Source: Cyanophora paradoxa CCMP329 (lineage: Eukaryota > Plantae > Glaucophyta). From it: a stretch of 64,000 nt of DNA. The notes beneath the pieces were generated by a model that worked only from the letters and a program-made list of their open reading frames with translations, searched no databases and had not been told where the DNA came from. A program made the position numbers and the translations under genes. Position 1 is the first letter of the stretch; each line of letters starts with the position of its first letter. Below are positions 2,835-60,876 of the stretch, in pieces. Where the stretch lies: the NCBI GenBank assembly GCA_004431415.1, contig QPMI01000436.1:582298-646297 (forward strand), written 5' to 3'.

Positions 2835-3650
2835 TCACGATATATATATCAGTTTCGCAATAAATGAAACCTTAAGCTTAGGGGGCAGGACATGTGCATC
2901 ATTATCACGCACTGCGACGTTAACGTTGCCCAAGACATGGGAGAGATGGGAAACGTATAAGTACGCCCTGCGCTGTGCTTCGCCTTTACGTTTCCATTCT
3001 TGCTTGTTATCTGATCTGGATATTTTGTTGTCGTAGACGACGCGGCGAGCAGGCTGGGGCCATGCGTCTACCATAGGGTTGCCTTCAACAAGCATCGATC
3101 GCAAACTGAACATGTTGCACATCTTTGGCATCTCCATCAGCTGGTTATCACGGATGGAAAGCTCTCGCAAGTTGAAGAGCTGCCCGATCTCCGGCGGCAG
3201 AGCTGTCAGCCGGTTCGCATCCACATGCAGAGTTTCCAGGTTCTCCAGATGCCCAAGCTCGGGCGGCAGTGTCGTGAGCTCGTTTCTGTCCGCATTCAGC
3301 ATCTCCAAGTTCGCAAGCTGCCCGATCTCTGGCGGAAGAGCTGTGAGCTCGTTGCAACTTATGTTCAGGTCCTTAAGGTTCTCCAGCTGCCCGATCTCCG
3401 GCGGCAGCGACGTCAGCCAGTTGCAGCTCAGATCCAGCACCGTCAGGTTCTTCAGCTTCCCGATCTCTGGCGGCAGAACCGACAACCTGTTCACGGCCAA
3501 ATCGAGCACGCGGATGCAGATTTGCCCCTCGGACGCGATCTCCGCCGCTGGCCACTCCGTCAGACAGCAGCTCTTCATGTCCATCTTGCCCTCGCGATCG
3601 CTCGAAATCCACGTGCCGCGGCCGCAGCGCCGCTCACGGCTCCGAGTCAT
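2835..3650 (-). CDS. Leucine-rich repeat protein or exon
   Basis: About six 23-aa repeats of the LPPEIGxLxNLxxLxLxxNxLT type. The 3' end reads into AT-rich, intron-like sequence. Confidence 0.88.
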   Translation of the reverse strand: MTRSRERRCGRGTWISSDREGKMDMKSCCLTEWPAAEIASEGQICIRVLDLAVNRLSVLPPEIGKLKNLTVLDLSCNWLTSLPPEIGQLENLKDLNISCNELTALPPEIGQLANLEMLNADRNELTTLPPELGHLENLETLHVDANRLTALPPEIGQLFNLRELSIRDNQLMEMPKMCNMFSLRSMLVEGNPMVDAWPQPARRVVYDNKISRSDNKQEWKRKGEAQRRAYLYVSHLSHVLGNVNVAVRDNDAHVLPPKLKVSFIAKLIYIS

Positions 3651-4763
3651 CGCTTTAGGATCGGAGCTGGATCGGAAGGAAGCCTATGATTATGATGTGA
3701 TGATCAGAATTCGAAGCAACGCGACACGTACTTTCAGCTATATACGTTGAATGATGCTTGCAAGCCGCCGATCGACGGCTATGCGGGAACGCGCATCATG
3801 ATCATGAGATTTACGGCTATAGCTAGATCTAGATCTAGATCTAGAGCGCCCTAGCCTGCGGCGCCCCGGCTGCGGGTCGGGCCGGGGCGCCGGCCGCGGC
3901 CCCGCGCGGCCGCGTGCGCGCACACACGCCATATGCATGGCCAGCCCCGCCGCACCCGTACGCGTGTTGAACGCCGAATGCTAGCGCTGGTTGAAGCCGC
4001 TATGTGGAAAGCCCCGCGCGCGCGGCGCCCCGGCTCTACATGCGGCCGCGGGCACTCGGACCATGAGCCTGCAGCTGCGACACCTGCAGATCGGGGATAT
4101 GAAGCACCCGCACCCGCGAATTCGAATGCAGGAGTAGGCCGGTTGCAATTGCATGCTGCAGTTGGTTTGCAGGAGGCCTAGGGTGAGACCCGGCCCCTAG
4201 GCCTGGGCTCTAGATCTGCGGGGGCGCGAAGCATGAGAGCAATTGCATGCGCTCTCCGGGAAGCGCCGCACCCACAAATACTGGCCGCCGGCCGCGATGC
4301 AGCCCGCGATGGTTTAGGAGCCAGGCGAGCTCGGCTCAGTAGGCACGCGTGTCAAGAAAGCTTCTAGCTGCTGGCGCCGAGCTGTCTGGTGGACGCGAGG
4401 GGCCGCTCAGTGGCCGCTGAGTGGCCTCAGTGGCCGCTGAGTGGCGCGAGCTGGGGGTACCGCGATTAAAGCCGGCAGCTCTTGGCAGTGCTTTTCGCCG
4501 TATATACGTATACGAGTACTGCAGCGGCTCACACGTGCAAGCGAGCTCACACGTGCTCACACGGCAGTTCAAGCGAGACCGCTGCCGGCAATTGCAACAC
4601 TGCTCGCTCCGATCCGTGCGTTCGATCCGTGCAGGTCGAGCCGTGCGAGGAGCTCGAGGAGCTCGAGGGGCGCGACTGCTCCGAGCGGCGCGGCCGCGGC
4701 TCATGCATATGTCTCGCTCGCGGCGCGCTCGCGGGCTGCTGGCGCCTAGTCGTCGGCTTGGAT

Positions 4764-29400: not shown

Positions 29401-32400
29401 TTGCCTTGCCCCTAGGCCTAGGCCTAGGCCCAGGCGCAGAGTCTCCAGGCTGGGGCAGGACGGCGTCGGAGCGCGCACCAGGGGAGCTCGGCCGGCTCCT
29501 CGGCAGCGACGAACATCCCCGCCTTCGCCATCAGGCACGCCAGGCCAACCTGCGCGGTCGGAGGGGCGGGGGGCGAGGGGCGGTGTCAGGGCACTGCAGC
29601 TGTAGCTAGATCTAGAGCTTTGTATAGGATCGCGAGGCGGAAAATGTAATTTGCTAGAGAGGCAGTCCAGCCTGGGGTAGCTATATCGAATATTAGGCTG
29701 GGCTGCCTAATATTCGCTCTAAACGGACGGCGCCCACGTGCGTGGCGCACCGTCTTGAGGGAGACGGTCTATCCACCCAAGGTTGGGCTGGCTAATATTC
29801 TAATACTAATACTACTACTAATAGTCTAAATAGGATCGCTGGCTGAAAGGACGTCTTAATAGCTGAGGGCGCACCGTCTTGAGGGCGACGGTCGGTAGCT
29901 AGATCTAGAGCTTTGTATAGGATCGCTTTAAGCTTTAAGCAATATATAGGATCATTTGCTAGAGGCAGTCCAGCCTGGGGTAGCTATATATAGAATAATT
30001 GGGCGCACGGTCTTGAGGGCGACGGTATACACAGGGACCCTACAGCTATACACAGGGACCCTAGGACAGCTGTGTATAGGATCTTCAATGAGCTACCTAG
30101 AGGACCCTAGTCTTTTCTCTTTTCTCAAAAGATCTCTCTAAAAGGACGTCTTAATATATATTAACAGCTGAGGGAGGGCGCACCGTCTTAAGGGCGACGG
30201 TCTTGCCGCCCGTGTTGGGCCCCGTGATGGTCACCACGCGCAGGCCGGGCGCCAGCGCCACGTCGATCGGCACCGGCGCCGGGCCGCCCTGAGACAGAAA
30301 GAGGGTGAGAACGGGCGGCGTCCCCTCTAGCCAAGCGTAGCCGCCCCGGAGAGAGAAAGAGCGCGCGCGGCGCGCGCAGACAGACAGACACGGATCCAGT
30401 CCCAGCCTAGCGTACAACCCCCCCCCCCCCCCCCCCCCCCCCCCGTACCTCTTTCTCGTGCTGCCAGACGAGCAGCGGGTGCCGGCACCGCGTCAGGTAC
30501 AGCCGGCCCGCCCCCTCTGCCGGGCGAGGGAGCTGAGCAATGGAGACGAGCAGGTGCGGGCATTTATGTATGTATGCGCCGCACACACCTCCGGAGGGGG
30601 GCGCGAGGGCCGGGGCGGAGGCGCGGAGCCAGCGGGCGTAGCGAGCGCGCGCCGTGGCGCAGTCGAGCGCCGTAACGATCTCCACGAGCGTCGAGATGTC
30701 GGGCCAGACCTGCGGGGGGAGGGGGGGGGCTCAGGGAGGGGTGGAAGCCTGCTTGGGCTCGCAGTGGCTAACGAGCCAGCGCAAGGGGCGCGGCAGACCT
30801 AAGAGGGGGAGGGGGGGGGAGGGGGCGGATGGCTCGGGTAGAGGTGGGACGAGGGGGCCTGGAGGGCGGCTCGCGCTCTCTAAAGACCCGAGACGGGGCG
30901 GGGGCGGGGGCGGGGCGGGACGAGCTATCGAGCTAACGAGCTAACGCAAGGTTGGCGAGCATAACTCATGGAGACGGGTTCTAAAGACTAAAGACGGGGG
31001 TGGAGAGGGCGGGGGGGTACAGGGCGCGCCTCGCGGACGCGGTCGGAGAGGGCGAGGAGGACCTCGCGGACGGCCTCCTCCTCCGCCCGCGCCAGCTGCC
31101 GCAGCGCGTTGTTCACCGTCACCGCCTGCGCCGGGGGTATGGGTTAGACGGGGGAGGGGGGGTGCGGGCGAGAGAGAGAGAGAGCGAGGCGGGACAGGGC
31201 GAGGCGGAGGAGGAGAGCGAGCCATAGGGCGGGGGGGGGGGGGGGGGGTGAGGCGGGGAGGGGGGTGCGGGCGAGAGAGAGAGAGCGAGGCCGGGGCGGG
31301 CGGCGGCAGTGCGGGCCTGGCGGGGCCTCTAGGGGGTGGGTTGGGTGGGGGGGGGGCGGGGGGGGGGCGGGGGGGTGGACCCAAGCGGGCCTGCTGGGCT
31401 CGACAATGAGGCTGCTAGGGGGTACATCTCCAACGAGGAGGGCCCGAACCCCTTCTAGCCCGGGGGCTCCCGGGGAGGGGGGGTGAGGGCGAGAGAGAGA
31501 GAGAGAGAGCGAAGCGAGAGAGAGCGGGCGGGCCTAAGGGCGGGCCCTCAAGACGGGCCTAGAGGGGCCCCTTCTAGCCCCCCGGGCGGGCCGGGGGGAT
31601 GGGGGGGGGGAGGGGGAGGGGGGGGGCGGGCCTGCTGCGGCTCGACGAAGAGGGTCATGCCCGAGTTGGACACGTCCAGCACGATGCCACCGACCCTGCA
31701 GAGGGGGAGAGTTGGGTTGGGTGGGGTAGAGAGGGTAGGATTGGGGAGGGGGAGGGGGGCGAAGGTGCGGGGGTACGCACGCCTCCTTGGCGACGGCCTT
31801 GATGGGATCACGAAGCGGTCGTTGCGCGTCGTCACGATCGCCTCCTGCGACTTCGTGAGGGGGGGGGGGGGGGGGGGAGGGGTGGGGAGGAGGAGCCAGA
31901 GGGGGGGGGGGCGAAGTGATGGCATAGGAGGAGGGGAAGGGGGGGGGGGTGTAGGGCGGAGGGGGCGCTCAAGCTCTTCGGAGGGAGAGGGTGGGGGGTG
32001 AAGGGAAGGGGAGGGGAGGGGGGGAAGAGTGGGGGTACAGCGGGGCGCGCCTGGAGGGCGTCCTTGTACTTGACGAGGCAGCGCTGCATGATGTCCCGGG
32101 CCTTGCCGTACGCCTCCGCCTAGTTCGGGAAGGAGTTAGATAAGGTTATGAGGCTCAGTTTAGAATGGATGTGTTAGGTCGAGAGTTTCGGAAAGGAGTC
32201 AGAGAGGCTCAGAATGCTCATCCACTCTCTTTCGTTCAGAGTCTCTGTGCTTGGTGATCGGGCACCTTGCGGGCGCGGATCTGGGCCAGCTTCGGGCTCG
32301 CCCGGTCCTCCACCATCCCCTCCGGGTCCAGCGCGTTCTGTACCCCGGGGTTTAGGGGTGGGGGGCAGAGATCGGGGGTACGAAGCGTGCGAGCCTTGAT

Positions 32401-33467
32401 GGTGCGCTCGAGGTCGGGGTGGGTGGTGAGGCCCTCGACGAGGCCAAGGAGCGAGGGGAACGCCCCCTCGGCCCCCTCGATCCCCTCGATCTGGCGCCGC
32501 AGCTGCGCTCGCGCACGCGCGGAGCTCGGCTTGACTTTTGATCTCCGCCAAGGCGGGTTCGAATCCGGGCGGCGGCGGCGGCGGAAGCGCACCGCACGGG
32601 CGCCGGCGAGCGTCGTCGCCACGCCATACAGCTCGCGCCCCGTGAGGACGTACCCCTCGATCCGCACGCGCTGCGGCGGGGGTCGGCGCAAGGCCCCGGG
32701 GGGGGGGGGGGGGGGGGGGGGACGGGGGGTACGTGCCTTGACGGATTCGGCGATGTCGCGTATCCCCTCGTACTTGAGGTCGATGCCCCAGCGGTTCTCG
32801 ATCTCGTACACCTCCCGCGTCTCGCCCAGCAGCCGCTCGCTCTCCTCTGCGCGCGTGCGTCTCGTGAGCTCGAGGCGCAGCGGCGCGGCTGCGGGGCGCG
32901 CGGGCGCTCAAAGAGACCTCGGGTGGCGGCCGGGATGCCGGCGGGGCCCAGGGCGCGGCAGGCCGCGGCGCCGAGCTTCGTCGCCGCGAACGTGGCCAGG
33001 TGCTCGCAGACCTGCGCGCGCGACCGGCCTGAGGCGGCGCGGCGGGGGCGCGCCGTCTCGCGGCGAGGCGCACGCGGGACCACTCGAGCAGCTCCAGCGT
33101 CTCTTCCTGCACGGTCTTCTCGACCGCCGCGGCGCCGTCCGCCGGCGCCTCGCCCGCCTGCGGCACCGCAGACGCGCCTGGGGCGGAGGCGCCTGAGCGC
33201 GCTGCGCTGCGCTGGGCCGGCAGCGCCGAGCGCGTGCGCACGGGATTCGGGTGTGCGGGCCGTGCGGTCAGCGCGCCAGCGGAGGACCGGCCGGGCGATG
33301 CACAGCCGCCAGCCGGTCGCGGGGGCACCGAAGAAGGCCCGCGAGGCGCTCGCCCTCGCCGGTGCCGCGCGCGCCGGCGTCCTCGGCGCGCGCCATGCGG
33401 AATCGGTCCACGGACGCGACGCTAAGCAGCGCCCGATCGCAGGCACGGGGCTCACGAAGGAGCTCAT
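23495..33467 (-). CDS. MUTS2: Plastid-targeted MutS2 (MutS ATPase, coiled coil, KOW, Smr); many introns
   Basis: ETLELLEW N-terminal motif, Walker A TGPNTGGKT, ADIGDEQS, SLSTFSGH, LLDEVGGGTDPQEGAAL, ATTHFGELK, NASVEFD, LLWGIPGRSNALAIAERLG, Smr HGHGTG. N-terminal transit-peptide-like MSSFVSPVP. Confidence 0.95.
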
Positions 33468-38900: not shown

Positions 38901-39323
38901 TCATCGGATCAGAAGCCAGCGCCGGCCGATCCCCTCGAGAGCCGGGCGCCCTCCCTCTGCACCCTCCTCCGGATCCGTCGGACCCCTGGTCATCGTATCT
39001 AGTGCTTATATCTACTTACTCTTGCTTCTTTGGAACTAGTGTCATCCGGCGCGCGCGCCGGGGCTGCTCCCCCATTCCCTCCGGATCCCTCCTCCGCCCC
39101 TTTCACGTCGGTCTCCCGATCACCCGCTGCCCTTTAAGGCTTCAACGTCAACGGTTGCAATTGGACTCGTGGTAATCGTATCTATAGCTCTATATATGAG
39201 GGCCATCAATGGGCCAAACGCGAAAAGTCAACTCCGAGAGCTCGAGACTCGGAAGTGACGCTTGGATTGCGGAGGTTCTTATAACCGCCGCAACAGCTGT
39301 GGGGGTACCCCTTCCGAGGCTGG

Positions 39324-39421
39324 CGATCGCGACGATCACGACCCTGGCGATCGCGATTTTCTCCCGATCGCGACCCTTTTCGATCGCGATTTCGAGATCG
39401 GGGACATTAATGCGATCGCGA
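39324..39421. repeat. Five copies of CGATCGCGA near the element's left end
   Basis: Copies at 39324, 39348, 39365, 39381 and 39413. Confidence 0.85.
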
Positions 39422-39552
39422 GAAAGGAAAAATCGGAAAAGGCCGAAAAGTGCCGTTTTCACGCGTGAAATCGATCGAAAACGAGGGTTCGAATCCCGGG
39501 CCCGGATTTGGACTTGGTCAGAATCTCGAGTCAAAATGGGAGAAAAATGTGA

Positions 39553-39632
39553 CCTGGACTTGGACTTGGGACTTGGGACTTGGGACTTGGACTTGGGACT
39601 TGGAAGAGTTGGAATCAGAGTCTGGACCCAAA
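39553..39632 (+). repeat. (G)GGACTT array 1 plus conserved tail
   Basis: Seven GG(G)ACTT units followed by GGAAGAGTTGGAATCAGAGTCTGGACCCA. Confidence 0.92.
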
Positions 39633-41595: not shown

Positions 41596-41715
41596 CCTGG
41601 GACTTGGGACTTGGGACTTGGGACTTGGGACTTGGGACTTGGGACTTGGGAAGAGTTAGACTCAGGGTCTGGGCCCAGAATCTCTCTGGATCTGAGAGTT
41701 TGCCGCGCCAAGTCC
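41596..41715 (+). repeat. (GGGACTT)7 array 2 plus conserved tail
   Basis: Seven perfect heptamers at 41599-41647, then GGGAAGAGTTAGACTCAGGGTCTGGGCCCAGA. Confidence 0.95.
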
Positions 41716-42028: not shown

Positions 42029-42172
42029 GACTTGTCTGACAAATTTCTGATCCTGGAGAAAGTCTGGGCCGGGACCTGGGTTTCAACTCTTCCCAAGTCC
42101 CAAGTCCCAAGTCCAAGTCCCAAGTCCCAAGTCCCAAGTCCAAGTCCCAAGTCCCAAGTCCCAAGTCCCAGG
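42029..42172 (-). repeat. (G)GGACTT array 3 (11 units) plus tail, inverted relative to arrays 1 and 2
   Basis: AAGTCC(C) units at 42095-42169. The reverse-complement tail is GGGAAGAGTTGAAACCCAGGTCCCGGCCCAGA. Confidence 0.95.
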
Positions 42173-42193
42173 TTTTTCTGAACCTAGGGCAAA

Positions 42194-42557
42194 ATGGCCC
42201 TGCTCCGGTGCACCGACTCGCAAGACGTCGCCTACAACGTCCTGGTCAACTCGGACGTACCCCCGAGTGCCTTGGAGTTTCCCTGGAGAGTGGACAGGGA
42301 CAGGGTGAGCAAGACGTTTGGAGGCGCAAGCACTACCTCTCCCAGCTGATCCTCGGGAAGTCGCCACGTGGACGCTACGTGGAACACATCAACGGCAACC
42401 CGCTGGACTACAGGAGGGAGAACCTGCGCTGGGCATCAATGTCGGAGATTCGCAAGAAGAGGAGGGGTACGCCAATTTACAGGAGAAGAGCGAGGAGATT
42501 CGGGAGATGATGGAGGCGACACAGGTGCTAATGCAGCTTAGCCAGTCTAGACGCTAG
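42194..42557 (+). CDS. HNH (HNH_3-like) endonuclease-family protein, frameshifted and possibly inactive
   Basis: YVEHINGNPLDYRRENLRW resembles the DHINGNxLDNRRxNLR motif. Confidence 0.75.
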
Positions 42558-44094: not shown

Positions 44095-46224
44095 ATGCCC
44101 CGCTTCGTATTCGTGAAAAAGCAGGTGGTGCAGGCTCCGCAGTATGGCGTGGAGCCGATCTCGCTGACTGTGGGCAGGCCCCAGGTGCGATCGGGCTCCG
44201 TGCTCAACAACGGGAACAGTACGTACGGCTTTCAGCTGAACTGGGTCGCGGTCACCAACGCCGTCAAGTACAAGGTGTACAGGGCGACCAGCATCAACGG
44301 CCCTGGGATCTCGTGGCCACGGTGAATGCGCCAACCGTCACCTACACGGACTCTCCTTTAGTTTGGGGCCCAGCGACTCTACCGCGTGGCGGCGGTTCGC
44401 GAACAGGGCAGCAGCAGCACGGGCTCTGATGGCAAAGCCCCGCCCACAACCTACGCACAGTCGCTTCTCTACACCCACGAGGGTGCCATGAGCAATTACA
44501 TTCTCTTCCAAGGCATAGGCGGCTTCAGCCCGCAGATCGAAGCCTACACCACGCTCACGACCGCCACGGCCCAGACCTACGGCGATTTTATTGCCGGGGC
44601 GGCCCCGCGTCTTCGGGCTTCCCGAAACCCGCCATAGTCGTCACAATCAACTGGGTGGCCATGGAGGGCGCGGACTCGATTCGAATTTACAGGAACGGTA
44701 CGCCAATCGGATTTGCGAGCAGTGCCCTGTCTACCTCGTACATTGACGATAGCACTGCTCTTACGTGGGGCACGGAATACTCTTACCAGGTGGCCGGCAT
44801 CGTGGGCGGTGTCGAATACGACAAGTCCGATCCGCTCCTGGTCTGGACTATGCCAAACGCCCCACGAACGTGACGGCATCAGCACCCAACGACCAGCAGC
44901 AGCCTGTCAGCCTCAGCTGGACTGCGTCCACGGGAGCGACGGGATACAAGATTTACAGAGACGGGGCCTACCTCACAGACTCCGCGACCAACTCCTACAG
45001 CGACACGACCACCGTCTGGGGTACAGGGTACGAGTACCAGATCTCCGCGACGAACACGGGAGGGGAGGGCCGAAGAGTATTGCGGCGTACGTCACCACGG
45101 ACCCGGGGGCGCCCACTGGGCTCACTGCAACCCCCGCGGCGGGGCAGCACAGCCTGTTGTGCTCGAGTGGTCGGTGCCGGTGACGGGCGTCACCGTCTCC
45201 TACAACATCTACAGGGGTGGCGTGTTCCTTGCCAGCGACACGAGCAGCCCCTTTTCGGACACAACGACCGTTTACGGAACCACTTACACTTACACCATCA
45301 AGGGCGTCAACCAGATCGGCGAGGAAGGCCCTCAGTCCTCGTCTGCCAGTGCAACAACTGCAAACGCTCCTGTTTTGGGTACATTCTCCTACACCGGGCC
45401 GACCAGACTTTCGTAGTACCAACGGGGACTGTGGCTGTGCGTGTCATCGTATGGGCGGCCGGGGGTGGAGGCGGAGAACGCGCAGGTACGGGGGTCCGTG
45501 GAGGCGCGGGTGCTTGCGTAGTTGGTACATTGGCTGTGTCCTCGGGGAGACGCTCATCCTTGTTGTTGGATGCGGCGGCCCAAAGGGTGTATCGGGACTG
45601 CCACTGCTACCGTCTACGGAGGTGGTGGAAGGGGCTGGAGCCATAGCGTCGATCCGGAGTACAAAAACGGCGCCGGTGGTGGTCGTTCTGCAATTCAGCG
45701 CGTTGCAGGGACCGACTTGGTTGTTGCAGGGCCGGAGGTGGGGGTACATGTGATTCGAATGGCGGCGGGGGAGTAGGCGGGGGTTGACCGGTGGTGCGGC
45801 TGGGTTGGTTGGAGTAACCGGAGAGATACCGGCTCAAGGAGGCACCCAAACCGCTGGCGGAGCCGGTGTTGTGGCCTCAGGGGCCAGGCCCAGCAACCCG
45901 GGAACTTTGCGCCAAGGTGGAGAGACTGGGCCTGATTCAAGCGGCTACAGGTTCGGTGGTGGTGGTGGTGGTGGTTACTTCGGTGGAGGCTCTGGGTCCA
46001 GCAGGAGCGGAGTGTCAGAGAACCCAATAGCAAGAATGTTTGGAGGTGGCGGTGGCTCGAGCTACATAGGAAACTTGACGGATGCTACGGTGTATCCTGG
46101 GTCCGGCCAGGTGGCAGGAAATAGCGGAGACGCTCACTACGCAGCAGGCATTGGTAGGGGCGGCAACGGTGGCTCGTCTTTCAGCGACGGTGGCAACGGT
46201 CGAATTGTGATACTCGCGGTGTAG
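44095..46224 (+). CDS. Fibronectin type III repeats plus ALK/LTK-like glycine-rich domain (putative attachment protein), frameshifted
   Basis: Four FN3-like units (LSW...GATGYKIYRDG...YSD...YEYQISATN..GEG), then FSYTGADQTFVVP...WAAGGGGG...GGGGGYFGGG...GGGGSSYI...GNGRIVI. Confidence 0.8.
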
Positions 46225-46244
46225 TTATTCCTAGTTGTTCCAGA

Positions 46245-47303
46245 TCAGCTCGCCAGTGCCGCTACCTGGTCTTTGAGAGTTTGAACTTCTTGTGAAAGTT
46301 CCTGAATTGCCTTCAACGACAGGGAAATGAGCCTGTCGTAGTTTACCCGAGAAATCCATCCGCGTTCTCGAAAACGAGACTCGGGAAGACGCCTTGGACT
46401 TCCTGTGCGATGAGACCGTAATCCGTTTTCGAACCCCCGAGGATGTGTTCTTCCAGGTGAACGACACGGGATTCAGCTGCAGCAGAAGAGGGAGAATGCC
46501 CGACATGCTCGCGACATTTTCTTTCAGGCGGCTATCGCTCGACGAGTTTGTCAGGTATCCTTGAGCATCCGAATAAACGGCTCGGTTTCCATCGCCCGTG
46601 AGCGTCGAGACGATGAGCCGACCCGTGATGCCAACGCCGACGGTTCCGCACAGCAGTCGTTCGGTGCCGTTGTTTCTCAAGGATAGACCAGAGCTGACGC
46701 TTCCGCTATCAACGATTGAAGTGTTTGCTATGCTTAGGCCATTAGTAGGGCCTTCGATTGCCGAGGTAAATAGAGTACCTGTAACACCAACGCCAAGAGT
46801 CCCACAGAGGAGTCTATCGTTTTCGTTGTACTTTATAGCTACGCCTGAACCACCGCCATTTATGTACGGTGACGTTCCGGTAATTTGCAGCTTATCGTCC
46901 AATGTAACGATGCCCGCCAAGTTTGAAGCCCCGCTCACCCTAAGCCCCCCACCACGTTTGCTCCGCCTCCTTGCACATACAGAGCCGCATTCCCCTCCCC
47001 GTTCACAGTCCCATTAAAGGTCACCTGATTCGTGGTGTACCCGCTCCCGTCCCAGGCCCCGTTCGTGACGGTGAGCCTCTGCGTCCTCACGCGCCCCGGC
47101 ACGGCCGACCCGCCCTCCCGCGTGCGCATCTTGTCGCAGCGCAGCTCGCCGACGCGGACGAGGTCGGCCTCGGAAAAGGGGACGGCCGTGGCGTTGTAGG
47201 GGGCCTCGGTGGCCTGGTTTCCGAGGGTGGTCTCCTTAATCGTGTGATCGCCCTTGTGATTCACGCTGGCAGCATAGGTAAATAGAGGGACAGCGACCGA
47301 CAT
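46245..47303 (-). CDS. Fibre protein with C-terminal intramolecular chaperone (peptidase S74-like), frameshifted
   Basis: Beta-repeat shaft, then SSDSRLKENV...LNPVSFTWK...GLIAQEV...LKAIQELSQEVQTLK coiled-coil tail. Confidence 0.82.
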
Positions 47304-47327
47304 TTTTGGATTGCATCAGAAAATCGA

Positions 47328-50300
47328 TTACATAAGCAGCTTGCCGATCGCGGTCCAATGAATAAAAAGCTGGACAATTTGGGTGGGCGTGACCGTCATT
47401 CTGGGTTGGAATCTCACTTTAACTGTAAAGCCAGTGTGACTCACCGCCGTGACGTTGGCCCGTAGAAATCGACATCCGTGCTGCCGCCGGGATTGATGTC
47501 GAACGAGGGGTTACGTTAATAACCGGCGTTGGGTTTGCTGGGGTCCCCAGTCCGCCTCCAGTGTCGTACGCCTGTCCGAATGTAATGTTGAACGTCACCG
47601 TGTATGTTGAATTGATGTTAAACTCCGTGTACGCAGCGTAGGAGTGGAAGGACGTGCCGTGCGTTATGTACGCATCCATGTTCACGTTTCTGTGCCCGTG
47701 GCTGGTGAGCGAGTACTCTGTGTGACTGTGCGTAGAGGGTGGGAAGGAAGTGGGTCGGTCGATGACATTATCCCAGTACACATTGTGACTGTGTGTAGAG
47801 GGGGGGAAGGTAAGTGGCTTGCCCGTTACGTTGTCCCAATCCACGGAGATGTTCGTCAAGTCCGGGGCCGTCCAGTCGCTGATCTGAGAGATGGTGTGCT
47901 GGTGGTCTGCGTGGGGATACGTACTCGGCTTCCCCGTGATGCTATCCCACGCCCACGTTGTTGGTATCACGGGTATCGTCGGCCTCCCGCTGAGATCTGC
48001 ATACGCCCCCGTGTGTGCCACCGTCGCCAGCTGCGGCACGGCAACGCCCACGGTGCTCACGGCCTGGCTCGCCCCCGGCGCCATGTGCCACTCGTAGTTC
48101 TGCGATGCAAACACGGGCTGGCCTGGCTCGGGCGCCCAGTACTCGATGCCTTTGGCGATCTTCTTGGTGTATGGTGCTGCAGGCCTGTCAACCAATTTAT
48201 CGACGTAGGCCTTGGGTACCAGCCAGTTTGCCTTGGGCTCTGCGAATTGATCCCGTTGTCTATGAAGGCCCCGTAATTCCTGAAGGCCTCGGCCTCCCAC
48301 CAATCCTGCATGCGGAAGGTCCCGGGAATCTCGAGGCGCGAGTTGGCGTCCGCCAGGCGGGCCACCTGCGCCCTCCGTTCGACGAGACGCCCGAGTGACG
48401 GATGGCCGAGCCGAATTCGCGCCTTAGGGCTTCGATGTGATTGATCCTGTTGAGGCCCTCCTGGTAGACGGCAATTAAGACGCGCTTCCGCCCCTTGGTC
48501 TCCTCCTTTATCATCTGCTTCAGGTCGCGCATAAGTCGACTCAGGGCGAGCGAAGTCGACCGAAGCCCTCCTGCATTTTAACGGTGAGCTGGGAGAGGAA
48601 GAGCACGGTCGCGCGATCGATTTCGAGCAGGGTCTTCTGGTCCTTGGGGTACGGTAATCGTTGATGCTGTTGTCGAGCGCGCGAATGAAGGCCTGCAGCT
48701 CCTTCGGCTCCTTGATTTCGTTTAACCGCAGCTCCTGGGCCAAGAGCGAGGCCATTTCGCGCGCCTCCGAGGGTCGTACACACCCAAAAATCCGGAGCCC
48801 AGCTCGCCCTCCAGCCGATTAATTCGGTTGCGCAGCTGGCTCGCCTCGTCGCCCCACGTCTCGACGCCCCAGTCGTAGATCTGTTGCGAGAGCTCCGCGA
48901 TGAACTGTATGGTGTCGGTCGCCCAGTCGACGGGGTACTTGAAAAAGTTCTTCACGATTTCTTCCGCGCTGCGCCGTTGATGATATCCACGATCACCTGC
49001 GCGATGGCGCCCGCGAGGATGGACAGGCCAAGTCCGCCCACCGTGCCGATCCTCATTTTCGTGAGGGCGCTCAGGGCGGACGACATGCCCGTCTGAAGGC
49101 CAAAGAGCCGACCGTCATGATCATCTGATCGCGGAACGTATCGAAGAACTCGGCCTCCCTATCTTGCCCTGCGAGAGCGCCTGGTAGGCCGAGAGCAGGC
49201 CGCCGGCCGTCGCCAGCCCAAGGCCCGCCGCCGCCGCGCCCGCCCGCCGCATGGCCCGCGAGCCCGTACCCCCGAGCCGGCGCCCACCAAGTCGATGCCC
49301 GCCCCCTGAAATAAATCGGCTGCCCCGAAAGACATGCCGTCGTTGTTCGCCGTACCCGCCGCCGAGAAGAGCGTCTCGGCGCTGAGGGCCTCCTTGGCCA
49401 CCCCGGGCCGCCTTGCCCTCGGGCGCCCCAGGTACGCGTCGCGCTGCTCTTTGGTGGTGAATCGCTCGAGGTCGAAATCGGCGAGGGCGTCGGCGGTGGC
49501 GCGGTTCCAGTCGCCGTAGGGCATGAGGGCGTTGCGCAAAATAACGTCCGAGTCGCCCATCACGCGCCTGTCGAGCGTCTGAAACACGCCCTCGGAGGGC
49601 AGGCGGGCGGTGCCCGGGCGCATCTCCTCCACGGAAACGTCGTCCCTCTCCGCGAGTGTGATGTCGTCTGGGCTGGCCAAGCCGACGCCCGCGCCCTCAT
49701 CGGCGTACGCCCTTCCCCTTCGTTTTAATATTTGATTGGCCTCCCGTTTCAATGCTTGGTACTCTGTCTCTACCTTGGTCTTTCTTGCCTCTTCCTCTGC
49801 CGCCTTGCGCTCTGCGATCTTCCGCCTCTGCTCTTCTATCTCGGCGTTGCGTCTCGCCGCGTTCTCCTTCGCCTGCTGCTTCCGCTCTTCAATCACCCTG
49901 TTTGCGTACTCCTTGTCCGCTTGGGCCTTTCTGTAGCGCTCCTCGATCTGACTCTTGGCCTCGTCTCCTCTCTTCCTTAGATCGCCCATGAATGCCGTCG
50001 TATCTATGTGAATCTTGTATTTGGCGGGTGGGTGCTCACGTTTGAAGGCCTCCAGATCGCGCACCATGGCATCGTACTGCGCGAGCCCCTCCGCTGGAAT
50101 GATGGCTCTTCGCATTTCCCAAAATTTGCTCAGCTTGCCCACGTAATCGACCATGGAGAGGTACGCGCTCTGTGCGCCCGCGCTCACCGTTTTCGGATTG
50201 GCTCGCAGCTCTGCCACAAACTTTCCCTTTTGCATCCGGTACAGTGACCATTCGAGGGCTCCCCGCCATAGGCTCACTTCCGTCCGCAGTTCGCGGTGCA

Positions 50301-54085: not shown

Positions 54086-54386
54086 TTCCCATGTTCTCTA
54101 GAAAAAAACGGGTACCGGTTTGCGTCATCTGAATGTCGACGTGGTGCGGCCCTATGTTCTGCGTGCTCTCGCGCCTCTGCTGCTCCGGTGGGGGTTCGGG
54201 CTCGGGCTGTCCGCGGCGGACGACCCTAAGGGCCGCCGCCTTCAGGGCGCCCAGCACTGTGTTGGGGCCGACGCGCTCCGTGCCGCCCAGCAGCTCCGAG
54301 ACCAGGAAGAGCGCGCCGCAGACGACGGTGATGATGTCCGAGTGGGTGCATTCCCCTGGAACATTTTCGCGGGCCCGTCAGATTTA

Positions 54387-56412
54387 TTATCCGCTACCCC
54401 TTCCCCTTCCGCGCCCCTTGCCTTTGCCGCGCCCTCGGCCCCTGGCCCTCAGGTCGCCGATTTCCGCGGCCTGCGGCGCGAAGCGGGGATCGTCCGCCTG
54501 GCCGGCGTCCGCCTGGAAAATCGTGAAGAGGTACCCGTCCGTGTTGTTGTCGGTGTTGTTCGTGTTTCGCGCGTGCGACCACTCTTTCAGTAAATCGCGC
54601 CTCTGCTTGTCGGGCAGCGTCTTTGAGAGGTACTCCTGCAGCTTGCTCGCGTAATTTTCCTCTGGGATCAGCGACGCAAGGACGGTGGGCGGATCTTTCC
54701 CATGCCTATCTTCTCTTCCGTCAGCATGCGCTCGAGCTCTGCGATTTCCACCATCGTATCGATGCTCGGTTGAGGCCCTGCCTCTGCCCTCTTCTGGTCT
54801 ACGAGGCGCTGCCCCGCCGCCGTGAATTTCGCGGACAGAATTTGGTGCAGCCGCTCGTACACCGTCGTGGTGCTCGGCTCCTTCTCCTTCAGCAGCACCA
54901 CCCAGTCGTAATTCGCCCACAGCACCTGCAAATTCGATATGTGATCGATCGTCACCAGCACGTGGGCGTGCAGCGCGCCGTCCGTCGGCCCCACCTCCAC
55001 GCCCCCTTGCACGCGAATTCCGATGATTGCGTTGGCGTACGTGTCGTCCTTGTACTTGCCGTTCTCTTCCTTCATATTGAAGCGTATGAACTTGTAGAAT
55101 TCTGCATCCGAGAGCACCTCTGCGAGGCTGTCGCGCAGCGCCGCCGCCTCGAATTCTCGCGCCTCTCCCAGGCGCTTGTGGGTGTTGAAGAGCACCCAGT
55201 AGCGCGACTGGCGCGCCTGTCGTATGTCGTACCGCGTGCTTCCGTCGGGATTCTTTTTGTTGAGGATGAAGACCGACCGCCCCGTCTCGCTGATTTCCGT
55301 GATCACCTTCTCGAGCGCCTCCAGCCCGTTTGCCTGCGCCGCCTGCAGTCCCGTTTTCGCCTTCTCTATGTTCTGCTTTACCTCTTGCGCGTCCGCGAAG
55401 GTTGCCATTAAATCTTCCATGCTCGGCGCCACGATTTTCGCCTTTCTGATTTTCGACTGCGCAGAGTTGGGCTCGATGACGGACGATCCGAAGTCAGCGG
55501 CCGTATCCTTTGCCTTTTTCGTGGTCTTTGGCTTCGGCCCGCCGAGCACGCTCTCGACCATGTGGTCGCGCGTCTGCTTGGAGACGGTGGCCGTGTCGCC
55601 CCTCTTTCGCCTCTGCAGGCCCAAGATCACGAGCAGGCCCTTGTTGCCGAGCAGCGTGACGCACTTCTGGCAGAGCCACGAGTTTCTGGGCGACACCGTG
55701 GGCACCTGCGCCGGCTTCTTGTCCTTGATGAGGGGTACGGCTCCTGGCCCTTTTTCTTTCCCTTGCCGTTTTGCTTGGCCGCCACGCGTTTGCCTTCTCT
55801 ATGACCGCGACGTACTCTTCGTACACGGCATCCTTCCTCGCCTGCGCTGCCTCCCTCGCGGCGATTTTCTCTGGCGTGTTGGCCCCCTTGGCGCTCGGCA
55901 CGGGCGTGGCTTCGTACATGAGGCGAAGGCAGCGGTAGCAGATTGGCGGCGATTTCTGCGCGCTCTGGTACGTGCGCGGTATGGCGCGCAGTCGCTCCTC
56001 GGGGAGTTTATCGTACTCGATTTCGCTGTGGATGCTCCAGAGGGTCGCGGGCTCGTGGTATGATTTATCGAGCAGCGATGGGAGCATCTGAACTTCTTTG
56101 GTGGCCGAGAGCTTGATGTAATCGGATATGCTCTTCTGCTGCTGGAATATGCCGTCCTCGCCCTGAACCAGCACGTATCGCTTCGGAATCTCAACGACGG
56201 GCGTCTCGAGCTCGTCCACGCCGGTATCGGGCGCGTTTCCCTTTGCCTTTCCCTTTCCCTTCCCTTGCCCTTGCCCTTCGGCTTAGGCTCCGGCTCCTCT
56301 TCCTCTTCCTCCTCTTCTTCCTCCGACTCGGAGGACGGGACGTGGGCTCCTCTTCCTCTGACTCGCTCGAGCTCTCTGGCTTCTTCTTGCGGCCTCGGCG
56401 CTTCGGAGGCAT
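54387..56412 (-). CDS. Long HUH-superfamily endonuclease (Rep-like) with basic N-terminus and two CxxC motifs, frameshifted
   Basis: Motif I-like YWVLFNTH, motif II GALHAHVLV, motif III LQEYLSK (YxxK); CYRC and CQKC; N-terminal PPKRRGRKKK. Confidence 0.78.
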
Positions 56413-56433
56413 TTATTGGACACGAGAAAAAAT

Positions 56434-57269
56434 TTACACGAGCTTTACAGCGCCCGTCTCGAGGGCCTCTACCGTCTTCGTAATGTACAGCTGCAGCAGA
56501 TCCTTAAGGTTGCTCTGCGGCAGCAATTTTACGTCTACGTGCATCTGCCTGGCGGTTTCTCGCTTCCTGTAGCCCGTCTCCTTGCCCGTCCACTGCATGC
56601 CGAGGGCGTCCTTTCTCCGTATCGGCCGCACCGCCGTCTTCTGGTACTCCTCCCCGAACCAGTCGTCCTTGTAGAAATTCGGCAGGCCGCCCTGCCCTCC
56701 GTTTGCATGAACTTGATGAGGAAATCCGACGCCTTCTTGCCGTCGAATTGCACGCGCGAGTAGTGCACCAGCGTGAGCAGGATGTGCGCGTGGAGCCGCC
56801 CCGACCGCGGCCCGTACTCGATGCCGATGTTCGCGTTGCCCTTCTCCACGTGCGTGTCGTACTGGTCGGACTTGAAATCGAAGCCCTTGGGGTTCGCCTT
56901 GTCGGGGTACACCCCATCTTTATGCACCGCGCCAGCTGCCTGTCGTCGTAGAAGAGGGCCTCCAGCCCCTGTGAAACGCGTCCTGCACCTTGGAGCCCTC
57001 TCCCTGCTCCGCGGCTTGTAGTTGGTCTGGATGGTGATCATGAAATTCGACTCGCGCTGCGGCCGATCCTCCCGTTCAGTTTCCTCACGGGCGCCGCGTC
57101 CAGCACCTTCTGGAACCACGTCTTGTCGGGCGCCAGCACCTTGTCGTTGATGTTGCCCACCACGATGTGCGTCTCTACCGGGAGCGGCCGGAGGCGTCCA
57201 TGCGGAGGTGAGGGTTCGGTGCCCGGCTTGCCTGTTTGCTGCCACGCCCCTCGCGATGAGGTTGAGCAT
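56434..57269 (-). CDS. HUH-superfamily endonuclease (rolling-circle Rep-like), frameshifted
   Basis: Motif I-like FMITIQTN, IEYGPRSGRLHAHILL (motif II), LQLYITK (motif III). Confidence 0.8.
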
Positions 57270-57342
57270 GTCAGACCAAGGCCTAGAAAATTTTCCGAGG
57301 CTGGGGTGAGCTTCCACGTGGGCCCCGGGGTACGTCCGCACC

Positions 57343-57381
57343 TCACCTGAGCATCACCTGAGCCTCACATGAATCACCTGA
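57343..57381. promoter_or_regulatory. Four TCAC(C/A)TGA boxes between the divergent HUH and VLTF3 genes
   Basis: Copies at 57343, 57354, 57365 and 57374. Confidence 0.55.
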
Positions 57382-57470
57382 GCAACGCCTTCTGCAACAA
57401 GTGCTTCCTCACTTGCAAGTGGGACCCACTCTCCTCTGAGAAGCCAACCTGTTGGTTCTGCAGGGAATAG
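57369..57470 (+). CDS. 33-aa zinc-ribbon micro-protein
   Basis: MNHLSNAFCNKCFLTCKWDPLSSEKPTCWFCRE*, with CxxC...CxxC. Confidence 0.4.
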   Translation: MNHLSNAFCNKCFLTCKWDPLSSEKPTCWFCRE

Positions 57471-57498
57471 CTCAGCTGCAGTACGAGGACTCAGAGGA

Positions 57499-58324
57499 AT
57501 GGCAGACTCTAACGAAATCGATCTCCTCCTCCGAAACTTCGAGCAGATCCAGCGCTACGGCGCCATCCTTCACGACGAGGGGGACCCAGACTTCGACACT
57601 CCGGCACCGTACCCCGCCGCCGCCGCCGCCATCGCCAACTCCTACCTCGGGGCCGGAGAGCGCCCCCGCAAGCGCAACCGCCGCACCCAAGGCCCCAAGG
57701 CGAAGCCGCTGTCCCCTGCGGAAATTGCAGCTCTACCGCCCTCGTTGGTGTTCACCTGGATGGGGATCTGGTTTGCCAAGGCTGCGGTCTGGTCCTGGAT
57801 CTTTATTATCCGGACCATCAACCCTGGCTGTCAGCGAGCTCCACAGCAACTACCTGCGCAAGTACCACGTTTCCGAGCGACTTAAGCAGCACTGCCTGGA
57901 GGATTCTCCGGTACCCGAGGACGTGCTGGCAGCTATTGCGAGGCGCATGGCGGGGAAGGAGTGGAGCAAAGACAATATCCGCCAAGTTCTCCGGCTCTGA
58001 AGCAGCAGAAGTACATCGAGCGCTGGGCGCAGATCAAGTGGCGCATCACGGGCGAGCGCCCGCCTCCGATGAGCGCGGAGGACATGGACCGGGTGCAGGA
58101 GATGTTCGCCCTGGTGGAGGTCCCTTCAGCATGTTCAAGTCGCAGGGCAGGAAGAACATGCTCAACTACAATTACGTTTTCAGGCAGATTTTCGTGCTGC
58201 TGGATTTGCCCCAGCACCTCCCCTTTTTCCCTTGCTCAAGAGCAGGCAGAAACTCTCGGAGTTAGATTCGATTTGGAACAGGATCTGCGAGTACAACGAC
58301 TGGCATTTCTTTCCTACTCTTTAG
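57499..58324 (+). CDS. VLTF3: Viral late transcription factor 3-like protein, frameshifted
   Basis: Zn ribbon DLVCQGCGLVL; YLRKYHVSERLKQ; QKYIERWAQI; RKNMLNYNYVFRQIF...FFPLLKSRQKL..LDSIWNRICEYNDWHFFPTL*. Confidence 0.88.
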
Positions 58325-58331
58325 CTACTCT

Positions 58332-58668
58332 TTAGTGATCGCGGCGGCCTTCCGCTCGAGCGCCTGCTTGATTCCGAAGCTGGCGCTGGTAGCCTTGATT
58401 AGCATGTTCGTCTGCCGTGTGTGAATCCGAGGATGAACATAATTCCGCCGGTGGGGTCGTCGTCGAAGAACTTGAGGGTGAGCACGTATTTCGAGAGCAG
58501 GCCGAGGGAGAGGCCGTTGACGGCGACTTGCGCGGCGAGCTCGGCTGCGTGGCCCGCCCTGTTTTCGCCTTCGTGCGAGGAGAAGGCGGCGTCGATGAGG
58601 GAGCCGGATGCCAGGCCGAGGGCGTACTGCACGATAGCCTGGGAGAGCCCTAGGAGCACCTTTGACAT
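58332..58668 (-). CDS. Small hydrophobic (membrane) viral protein, frameshifted
   Basis: Hydrophobic G/A/L-rich helices, DPTGGIMFILG. Confidence 0.55.
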
Positions 58669-59078: not shown

Positions 59079-60144
59079 TCAGGCGAGGCCGCGGTGCTTC
59101 CTGAAATTATCTATCATGCCGAGGAGCGTCTTGTCCACCGTGCCGTCGTCCGGACCCACGAGATTTTCTCCGTTGACGGTTTCGCCCTCCAGTACTCCTT
59201 GGATCCGATGCGGAAGGGGGCGGCTCCTCGGCCTTGTAGACGTACAAAACGTCCAGAGGGTTCGTAGAGTTGTTGGAAGAATCGATGATAAGGCAGTGGT
59301 TATCCTGCGTGTACTTATCGAGCAGGTAGTAGAAGGCGCGCTGGGAGATGATGTCGCCCCACTCCTTTGCGAGGGCCTCGCGCTGCATCGCCTGCGAGCA
59401 CTTGAAAATGACAGCCAGATCAGTATTGGAGCGCAGGACGGGATTGATGCCCTTGGCATACTGCGTCGTGATAAGGGTCATGATTTTGTAGTGGCGCCCC
59501 GCCACGAAGAGCTCGTTGAGGGCCTCGTCGTACCGCAGCCGAGCGTCGGAAATCACGTCGTCGAGCAGCACGAAAAATCGCGGGTCGACGGGATCCTCCT
59601 TTCCCGCGAGCACGTCTTCGGACTTGTTGTGCTGCATGATCGCCTGCTGCCTCCTGAATAAATGGAAGAGCACGCCCGGGTTGTACTTGGGCCAGATGAA
59701 GCGCTGCGGGATGTACTGCTTCCAGTAGCCGTTCAGGCGATCGGTCTGGCTGATCACGATACCCCCCGGGAAGGTGCCGGAGAGGTTGAACATGAGATCG
59801 CGGAGGAAGAAGGACTTGCCCGTGCGCCGCTTGCCGACGCAGACGACCGTGGCGTCGGACTTGACGGTGTTCACGTCGAACCACTTGAGCTCGGGCAGGC
59901 AGGCCATGCGCTCGATGCCTCCCGTCTTCGAGTTGTCGAGGAAGGCGTTGACCTGCTCGGGCGTGAGCTGCTGGCCGTCCTCTGTCATGCCCATGGCGCA
60001 GCTGGCGCCGGCGGCGGGGCCGTGCCCGAGCCCGTGCCGGTGGCCTGGCCGGCGGGGCGGGGCCGCGGGCGCTGCGCCTGCGGGCTGGGCGGGCTGGGGC
60101 TTGGCCGCCTTCGGCTTCTTCGGCTTCTTGGGGTCCTTGGCCAT
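59079..60144 (-). CDS. A32: A32-like (FtsK/HerA) genome-packaging ATPase; frameshift near C-terminus
   Basis: Walker A VGKRRTGKS, Walker B FVLLDDV, GRHYKI, ITTQY, LRSNTD. Confidence 0.93.
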
Positions 60145-60156
60145 TTTACCCCTTCA

Positions 60157-60369
60157 TTCAGATTTTTCGAGGGTGCTCCAGGTCCTCGTAGTCGATACCT
60201 AGCTCCAGGTCCTCGTAGTCGATACCTAGCAGCGCGCAGCCTCTCTAATGCAGCTTTCGAAATCGCTCAGAATGTCTGGAACGCTTTGGCTGTAGTCTGA
60301 GCTGAAGAACTCATCTCGGTAATGTCGATGCACCATCCGGATGAATTTTTCCGCCCAGGCCTCTGCCAT
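60157..60369 (-). CDS. Small acidic protein with 27-bp internal duplication, frameshifted
   Basis: MAEAWAEKFIRMVHRHYRDEFF...LGIDYEDLELGIDYEDLEHPRKI*; duplication at 60175-60228. Confidence 0.45.
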
Positions 60370-60400
60370 CCCCTTCATTCAGATTTTCTTGCGACCCTGG

Positions 60401-60876
60401 ATGAAGATCCTCGGCGTGGATGTGGGGGTCATCAATTTCGCATGGTGCCTCATCGAATTCGATCCGCAGACAAAGGAATCCCAGATTCTCGACTGGCAGA
60501 AGATCGCCCTCTTCCCGTCTGCGCGCTGCTGTGGCCGCCTGGTTGCGCGCCTGGTGGAGGTTACTCGCGGCCATAGCGCCTTCGGCCTTCCCGACCAGAT
60601 CGCGATCGAGGGCCAGAGGACGGGAATCAATCGCTGCATCGAGTGCACGCTCCACGCCCTGCTGTACGGGCGTGCGCGGATCGTGAGCCCGCGCGCCATC
60701 AAGCACTTCTTCAAGATCTCGAACCCGAGCTACAAGGAGCGCAAGCGGGCGCCGTGGACAAGTGCCGCGACCTCGTACCCGCCGAGCTCGCCGACATCGC
60801 GGATCGAAACGGCAAGCTCGACGACCTCTGCGACGCCTACTTAATCGCCCTCTACGCCGCGCTCAATCCGTTGTGA
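60401..60876 (+). CDS. Poxvirus A22/RuvC-like Holliday junction resolvase, one frameshift
   Basis: MKILGVDVGVINFAWC, IAIEGQ, YKERK, KLDDLCDAYLIA catalytic motifs. Confidence 0.9.

What the first reader, a model, noticed from the sequence alone, without database searches (positions are those of the whole stretch)
54387..57269. Two tandem HUH Rep paralogues, one with a Zn-finger/NLS extension
Both genes keep motif I, HUH (LHAHxL) and YxxK, and share GxExGP..G.LHAH.L.T..H.S. The long one adds a basic N-terminus and two CxxC motifs. Inference: they may divide labour, for example one for rolling-circle initiation and one for strand-transfer integration or excision as HUH transposases do. This could explain integration without an integrase.
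Basis: partly seen in the sequence, partly recalled or inferred. Interest (0 to 1): 0.8.

Follow-up and report, generated by a model that had tools for sequence, protein, structure and literature searches.

The report
Known twin-nickase pair, compact zinc-finger version
These two neighbouring genes of a virus-like element repeated in an alga's genome match the short and long DNA-nicking (HUH) genes already described for gamadviruses, small relatives of giant viruses; they likely act together to start and finish copying of the viral DNA, and the long one carries a cysteine pair, predicted to bind zinc, that the gamadvirus long proteins share.

Summary
Two tandem minus-strand genes (57269-56434, 280 aa; 56412-54387, 676 aa) each have motif I, LHAH and YxxK. 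The long gene also has a basic N-terminus and two CxxC motifs. The frame breaks are likely assembly errors: short-read contigs fill them.

The arrangement is already published. Gamadviridae (Mriyaviricetes) encode HUH followed by HUH_long (PMC11253617). In trees the long gene groups with gamadvirus HUH_long and the short gene with HUH (98/89 and 97/94). An independent duplication is only borderline rejected (AU p 0.047-0.058).

New here: this HUH_long is compact (676 aa against 1591-2114), and its CxxC pair is also present in 8 of 8 full-length gamadvirus HUH_long proteins, in a region the paper calls uncharacterized. Near-identical long genes lie on at least 23 Cyanophora paradoxa contigs, in two subtypes.

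Best reading: two active single-tyrosine nickases that likely cooperate in rolling-circle or hairpin replication. HUH-driven integration is possible but unshown. No integrase was found in the visible 25 kb, but the element runs off the window. The scan noted this element and its twin nickases before, on other pieces of the same genome.

The parts
56434..57269 (-). Short HUH endonuclease gene (280 aa in intact sister copies); orthologue of gamadvirus HUH; broken by 7 likely assembly errors in the window
54387..56412 (-). Long HUH gene (676 aa in intact sister copy P0001); compact orthologue of gamadvirus HUH_long
56380..56412 (-). Basic N-terminus MPPKRRGRKKK, NLS-like (inferred), followed by an acidic tract
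   Evidence: not conserved in most gamadvirus HUH_long
55929..55943 (-). First CxxC (ICYRC) of a predicted split zinc site
55661..55675 (-). Second CxxC (LCQKC), followed by the CxxCxxxLxxxxxL pattern shared with gamadvirus HUH_long
54935..55213 (-). Long protein: motif I (RQSRYW) to motif II (LHAH)
54621..54668 (-). Long protein: motif III helix with the single predicted catalytic Tyr (YLSK)
   Evidence: (Y596 and K599 invariant in 13 of 13 rows)
56757..57056 (-). Short protein: motif I (RESNF) to motif II (LHAH)
56476..56523 (-). Short protein: motif III (YITK)
   Evidence: (Y269 invariant in 26 of 26 rows)
57499..58335 (+). VLTF3-like gene (context; frame-broken)
59107..60144 (-). A32-like packaging ATPase (context), 44-55% identical to gamadvirus ATPases
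60341..60844 (+). RuvC-like resolvase (context; Pfam Ydc2-catalyt hit)

Best explanation
The two genes match the short HUH and the long HUH (HUH_long) of gamadviruses, lie in a multi-copy virus-like element of a glaucophyte alga, and likely encode two active single-tyrosine nickases that work together at the viral origin or ends to start and close rolling-circle or hairpin replication.

Shown: both keep the catalytic motifs; order and strand are the same as in gamadviruses; the long protein has a CxxC pair that gamadvirus HUH_long also has.

Inferred: (1) The pair comes from one old duplication. (2) The catalytic Tyr sits on a C-terminal helix after the sheet, as in IS200 TnpA and rudivirus Rep. 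IS608 TnpA uses hybrid two-site dimers, so the paralogues would supply two non-equivalent sites, one for the initiating nick and one for termination and re-ligation. (3) The zinc site and basic tails would give the long protein DNA recognition and nuclear targeting. Integration would be a side use of the same strand-transfer chemistry, or come from another route.
For: Published pair and rolling-circle inference: PMC11253617 sections 6 and 7. Same order in 8 of 8 informative gamadvirus loci, plus 2 loci whose downstream ORF runs off the contig; 3 of the 13 loci end too early to tell. Profile match of the window's long family to gamadvirus HUH_long: probability 98.7, covering motif I to motif III. 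Diagnostic motif I is RQS/TQS-type in long proteins and ESN in short ones. Trees split long from short with 98/89 (37 rows, LG+G4) and 97/94 (28 rows, mixture model). His, His, Tyr and Lys are invariant in 13 of 13 long rows; His, His and Tyr in 26 of 26 short rows. Between the two host subtypes of the long gene the HUH core is 91% identical, against 55-57% for the N-terminal region and the insert, which points to selection on the catalytic core. The model of the short protein (pLDDT 70) has IS200 transposase 2ec2 tied at the top of the fold search (Z 7.2, rmsd 5.4, 120 aligned) and parvovirus nickases at Z 5.6-5.7. Hybrid-site dimer of IS608 TnpA: PMC3597680, start of abstract in a search listing.
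Against: No activity or origin was tested. The fold matches are middling: Z under 8, tied with an unrelated adenovirus protein, and no Foldseek hit reached E<=0.001. The long model is poor (pLDDT 45). AU tests barely reject or fail to reject an independent duplication (p 0.058 and 0.047), and long branches meet at that split. HMMs of the gamadvirus CxxC regions land on the matching knuckle but are not significant (best E 0.41 and 0.082). In the paper's table 6 of 21 gamadvirus representatives lack a HUH_long call and Phaglo-G lacks the short one, so the pair may not be obligate, or those contigs are partial.
Confidence: 0.55

Rival explanations
1. Division of labour: the short HUH starts replication and the zinc-finger HUH_long is a dedicated transposase-like enzyme that integrates and excises the genome by single-strand transfer.
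For: Near-identical long genes on at least 23 host contigs. No integrase hit in 189 frames of the visible 25 kb. A preprint states that integration genes are absent in mriyaviruses (10.64898/2026.06.19.733378, passage). IS200/IS605 TnpA chains appear at ranks 6, 8 and 9 for the long model, weakly (E about 0.01-0.02). The left end holds palindromic repeats that fold better than shuffles (z -3.3). Phaglo-G, found on a Phaeocystis genome scaffold, is scored with HUH_long only. IS91 transposases have an N-terminal zinc domain before the HUH core (recalled).
Against: The same pair and CxxC motifs occur in gamadvirus contigs of IMG/VR that show no sign of host flanks within the stretches read, so the pair is not peculiar to integrated copies. 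The short protein resembles TnpA at least as much as the long one does. No IS91 or Helitron Pfam family was hit. The junction, target site and right end are untested.
Confidence: 0.2
2. The pair serves replication or genome-end processing only; the copies entered the chromosomes through host double-strand-break repair or through a recombinase supplied in trans, and then spread by recombination.
For: Earlier scan notes describe tyrosine-recombinase elements in the same genome (unchecked). 2 of 7 subtype-B long genes sit next to a short gene closer to subtype A, consistent with recombination between copies. Viral endogenization without integrase is reported across eukaryotes (PMC12344493 and 10.1101/2025.04.19.649669, passages).
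Against: Many copies at 97-100% protein identity within each subtype suggest a recent, repeated and efficient route rather than rare capture.
Confidence: 0.2
3. The duplication in this lineage is independent of the one in gamadviruses, and the CxxC pair is a convergent addition.
For: AU p 0.058 and 0.047 for joining the two window-lineage families. The N-terminal regions do not align by profile outside the HUH domain. The lengths differ about threefold.
Against: Same gene order, same long-type motif I, same knuckle patterns in register (CxRCxR, then CxxCxxxLxxxxxL), and 98% of bootstrap trees split long from short.
Confidence: 0.1

Closest known systems
Gamadviridae HUH and HUH_long (Mriyaviricetes; Pleurochrysis endemic virus 2 genes 11 and 10; PMC11253617)
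   Same: Short gene directly upstream of the long gene on the same strand; both with motifs I-III; long-type and short-type motif I; CxxC pair upstream of the HUH domain; VLTF3, ATPase (44-55% identity) and RuvC-like gene in the element.
   Different: The long protein is 676 aa against 1591-2114 aa; knuckle spacing is 59-90 in this family against about 177-233; it has basic/acidic and GR tails; VLTF3 lies directly next to the HUH pair rather than about 9 kb away; the host is a glaucophyte and the element is multi-copy in chromosomes; all markers sit on long branches.
IS200/IS605 TnpA (Y1 HUH transposase) and rudivirus SIRV1 Rep
   Same: Single Tyr on a C-terminal helix, small ferredoxin-like HUH core; TnpA is tied for best fold match (Z 7.2). 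The paper reports SIRV1 Rep as the best HHpred hit for mriyavirus HUH.
   Different: No sequence or Pfam match; two paralogues instead of one homodimeric protein; 280 and 676 aa; encoded in a virus with a packaging ATPase.
IS91 transposases and Helitron Rep-Hel
   Same: HUH core with an N-terminal cysteine-rich zinc region (recalled); rolling-circle transposition without a classical integrase.
   Different: One Tyr in motif III rather than Y2; no fused helicase; no Pfam hit to these families.
Mriyaviricetes-related embedded regions in a Glaucocystophyceae assembly (10.1101/2025.04.19.649669, Fig. 5f text)
   Same: Same host group and virus class, embedded in the host genome.
   Different: The preprint's main text does not mention HUH (0 occurrences); its supplements were not seen.

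Membership tests
HUH endonuclease superfamily (Y1) | Motif I, HUH motif II and Tyr-x2-3-Lys motif III in both proteins | tested here: met
HUH endonuclease superfamily (Y1) | HUH (ferredoxin/RRM-like) fold | tested here: inconclusive
   Short model pLDDT 70; TnpA Z 7.2 tied with an unrelated fold, NS1 Z 5.6-5.7, TrwC Z 5.1; long model pLDDT 45
HUH endonuclease superfamily (Y1) | Metal-dependent ssDNA nicking and joining | not testable with these tools
   needs purified protein
Gamadvirus HUH / HUH_long pair | Short HUH plus a larger protein with a C-terminal HUH domain, adjacent | tested here: met
Gamadvirus HUH / HUH_long pair | Orthology: long with long, short with short | tested here: met
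   98/89 and 97/94; the alternative is only borderline rejected
Mriyaviricetes | Packaging ATPase, VLTF3, RuvC-like resolvase and HUH together | tested here: met
Mriyaviricetes | Double jelly-roll MCP; 35-45 kb; no DNA polymerase | tested here: inconclusive
   Only about 25 kb visible; no match to the ORFs of gamadvirus loci L015/L016 other than ATPase and VLTF3; no polymerase family hit in the visible part
Gamadviridae | Placement within the gamadvirus clade in marker trees | tested here: inconclusive
   ATPase falls on the gamadvirus side against 4 distant rows but on a long branch (1.38); no identified Yaraviridae in the tree (36 of 80 loci used)
Gamadviridae | Family-specific PEV genes and SF3_hel2 helicase | tested here: inconclusive
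   tblastn of ORFs from 14 gamadvirus loci hit only HUH, HUH_long, VLTF3, ATPase and one small gene; window is frame-broken and partial
IS91 / Helitron transposases | Y2 motif; Helitrons also a fused helicase | tested here: not met
   One invariant Tyr, no helicase domain, no Pfam hit; defining features recalled
IS200/IS605 TnpA | Homodimer acting on subterminal hairpins of a small insertion sequence | not testable with these tools
   Only a fold resemblance; the element is a large virus-like unit

The most novel reading that the evidence does not exclude
HUH_long is the missing integrase of gamadvirus-like viruses: its zinc site reads the structured genome ends and, with the short HUH as partner, pastes a whole capsid-packaged dsDNA virus genome into chromosomes by single-strand transfer. 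That would be HUH-driven proviral integration of a Nucleocytoviricota-related virus, and it could be tested in a cultured alga that carries many near-identical copies.
Probability: 0.2. Interest if true: 0.75.

Novelty: new variant of a known kind. Interest (0 to 1): 0.4.

Why it matters
The tandem pair is in print, so the headline is not new. Two things add value. First, the region of HUH_long that the founding paper calls uncharacterized carries a conserved CxxC pair across two lineages whose proteins differ threefold in length, which gives a first functional handle. Second, the 280-aa and 676-aa versions are small enough to purify, and they come from a cultured alga with many copies. That makes two open questions testable: why these viruses keep two active nickases, and how integrase-less mriyaviruses enter host genomes.

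Tried and rejected
Complex prediction of the two HUH domains gave no answer (score 0.00, alignments not used, partner fold uncertain). It is no evidence either way.

No whole genome is held, so the right end, the junctions of sister copies and the unseen genes could not be read. The left junction could not be tested with reads.

Close relatives with DNA context were not found: viral contigs with the long ORF or the short alignment, and metagenome contigs twice, gave no confirmed locus. The PEV2 record is not held. The paper's HUH alignment (Fig. S12) is a picture and was not seen.

Pfam gives no family above cut-off for either protein. A PDB sequence search with the short profile gave only chance hits (E>=0.9). 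Atlas hits for residues 75-275 scored 0.80 or less, leads only. VIA search of the whole long model gave Z<=5.7 and did not test the zinc region.

A first tree with 6 distant short HUH proteins left the four clades unresolved. I dropped those 6 and 2 long-branch rows, and further rows.

No RNA holder was listed. Two runs guessed to be RNA have contigs on parts of both genes, which is not evidence of expression.

My first guess that 42.5-44 kb is the major capsid gene was not supported by any search and is not claimed. Literature searches for the CxxC pair in HUH_long, or for HUH heterodimers in such viruses, found nothing relevant; most subscription papers are not searched.

Full report
Setting. 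The window is intron-rich, GC-rich host DNA up to about 39 kb, followed by a densely coded element that runs off the right edge. The element carries an A32-like ATPase, a VLTF3-like gene and a RuvC-like gene. The nearest proteins are EukProt gene models that the cluster look-up labels Cyanophora paradoxa. Long-gene models lie on at least 23 contigs. On the 15 contigs where I held both a short and a long model, they carry consecutive gene numbers.

Observation. Both genes are on the minus strand, short first (57269-56434), then a 21-nt gap, then long (56412-54387). Each start has an A/T run followed by TC shortly upstream. The genes are frame-broken in the window. Contigs from 4 runs of 4 studies carry an extra base at 7 places in the short gene and 3 in the long gene, among 12 rows shown and 3 not shown. 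The places are enriched in letter runs, and the 7-nt shortfall of the short gene equals its 7 listed places; the long gene is 5 nt short, with 3 places listed and a low-complexity stretch skipped. These are likely assembly errors, although contigs of a multi-copy family show the majority form, not this copy.

What it is. Yutin et al. [quoted passage not shown] I fetched 13 gamadvirus-like loci by their short HUH, one of them the contig already fetched as L001. In 8 loci a complete 1591-2114-aa HUH_long follows on the same strand, in 2 the downstream ORF runs off the contig, and 3 end too early. L001 has the same length as a contig in the paper's table. The profile of the window's long family (P0001, P0002 and three unnamed homologues at 23-28% identity) matches the gamadvirus HUH_long profile from motif I to motif III at probability 98.7. 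Trees of the HUH domain separate long from short with 98/89 and 97/94. Long branches meet at that split, and the alternative of an independent duplication has AU p 0.058 and 0.047, so orthology is well favoured but not proven. A tree with distant outgroup rows left the base open.

The zinc motif. P0001 has four cysteines, all in two CxxC motifs, and the pair is kept in the three distant homologues. All 8 gamadvirus HUH_long proteins also have a pair upstream of the HUH domain, in the patterns CxRCxR and CxxCxxxLxxxxxL. The spacing differs (59-90 against about 177-233). HMMs built from the gamadvirus knuckles land on the corresponding knuckle but are not significant, and the profile comparison did not extend into this region. 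A shared split zinc site is therefore a reasonable inference, not a result. I did not find it in print. The NLS-like start is lineage-specific.

Evolution within the host. The long gene has two subtypes, about 67% identical overall, 91% in the HUH core and 55-57% in the N-terminal region and insert. The short gene is about 95% identical across subtypes. Two of 7 subtype-B long genes sit beside a short gene closer to subtype A. This fits selection on both catalytic cores and recombination between copies. The gene models come from an error-prone assembly, and several lack a motif where spurious introns were called.

Fold. The short model (pLDDT 70) has a ferredoxin-like core with the Tyr on a C-terminal helix. 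IS200 transposase 2ec2 ties for best match (Z 7.2, rmsd 5.4, 120 aligned) with an unrelated adenovirus protein; bocavirus and B19 nickases and TrwC score 5.1-5.7. Foldseek found nothing at E<=0.001. The long model is poor (pLDDT 45), with weak TnpA hits and generic matches in the wide search.

Mechanism. I commit to cooperation in replication: two Y1 nickases that supply non-equivalent active sites for initiation and for termination or re-ligation, with the long protein adding DNA recognition and nuclear targeting (0.55). The analogy is the hybrid-site dimer of IS608 TnpA (PMC3597680, start of abstract) and the nicking-joining Rep of SIRV1 (PMC6668415, passages). No step of this was tested directly. 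The integrase reading (0.2) has circumstantial support: many near-identical copies, no integrase hit in 189 frames of 75 aa or more in 39-64 kb, a preprint noting that mriyaviruses lack integration genes (10.64898/2026.06.19.733378, passages), and a structured left end. Against it, the pair is general in gamadviruses, the rest of the element is unseen, and earlier scan notes mention recombinase elements in the same genome (unchecked).

Family. The ATPase is 44-55% identical to 76 of 80 retrieved loci, which include six contigs matching published gamadviruses by length, and 30-32% to the other 4. It sits on a long branch, and no Yaraviridae were identified in the tree. Gamadvirus-specific genes were not detected in the visible part. 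I file the element as a gamadvirus-related mriyavirus with family membership open. Mriyaviricetes-related regions embedded in a glaucophyte assembly are already reported (10.1101/2025.04.19.649669, passages; supplements not seen, and they may bear on this). I also read passages of 10.1101/2022.07.28.501842 and PMC12344493.

Verdict. The feature is real and of a known kind. It is a compact variant with a newly noted conserved cysteine pair and good experimental access. Interest 0.4.

Noticed in passing
window 39150-39550: Likely left end of the element: five copies of a CGATCGCG-type palindrome; the single strand folds better than shuffles (z -3.3, 1 of 100 shuffles as good). The exact junction is not fixed.
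   Followed up: partly
window 39556-39630, 41596-41686, 42056-42173: Three (GGGACTT)n arrays, two on + and one on -, each joined to a shared motif of about 35 nt; the last two form 59-nt inverted arms 369 nt apart. Iteron- or origin-like; a candidate HUH substrate.
   Followed up: partly
window 42300-42510: Small HNH_3 endonuclease-like frame next to the arrays (E 2.4e-7).
   Followed up: no
window 44400-48300: Fibronectin-III/glycine-rich protein and a Peptidase_S74 chaperone-containing fibre-like gene, phage-type receptor-binding candidates.
   Followed up: no
window 56413-56440 and 57270-57300: A/T-run followed by TC shortly upstream of both HUH starts, like the promoter word in an earlier scan note.
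   Followed up: partly
EukProt models P0001/P0002 families: Two subtypes of the long gene (67% identical) beside a nearly invariant short gene; some copies look recombinant.
   Followed up: partly
window 54200-57500: Contig depth is about 3500-4200 in run X1 and about 900 in X8; it could not be compared with single-copy host DNA, so copy number or episomal replication is open.
   Followed up: no
P0023, P0024, P0026, P0010, P0014, P0029: Environmental relatives of the compact long and short proteins (Logan, ENA and JGI for the first five; source of P0029 not looked up) show that this lineage extends beyond the host genome; their genomic context was not available.
   Followed up: partly
window 31500-33300: Intron-split host gene fragments that resemble MutS2 by eye (label recalled, not tested).
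   Followed up: no
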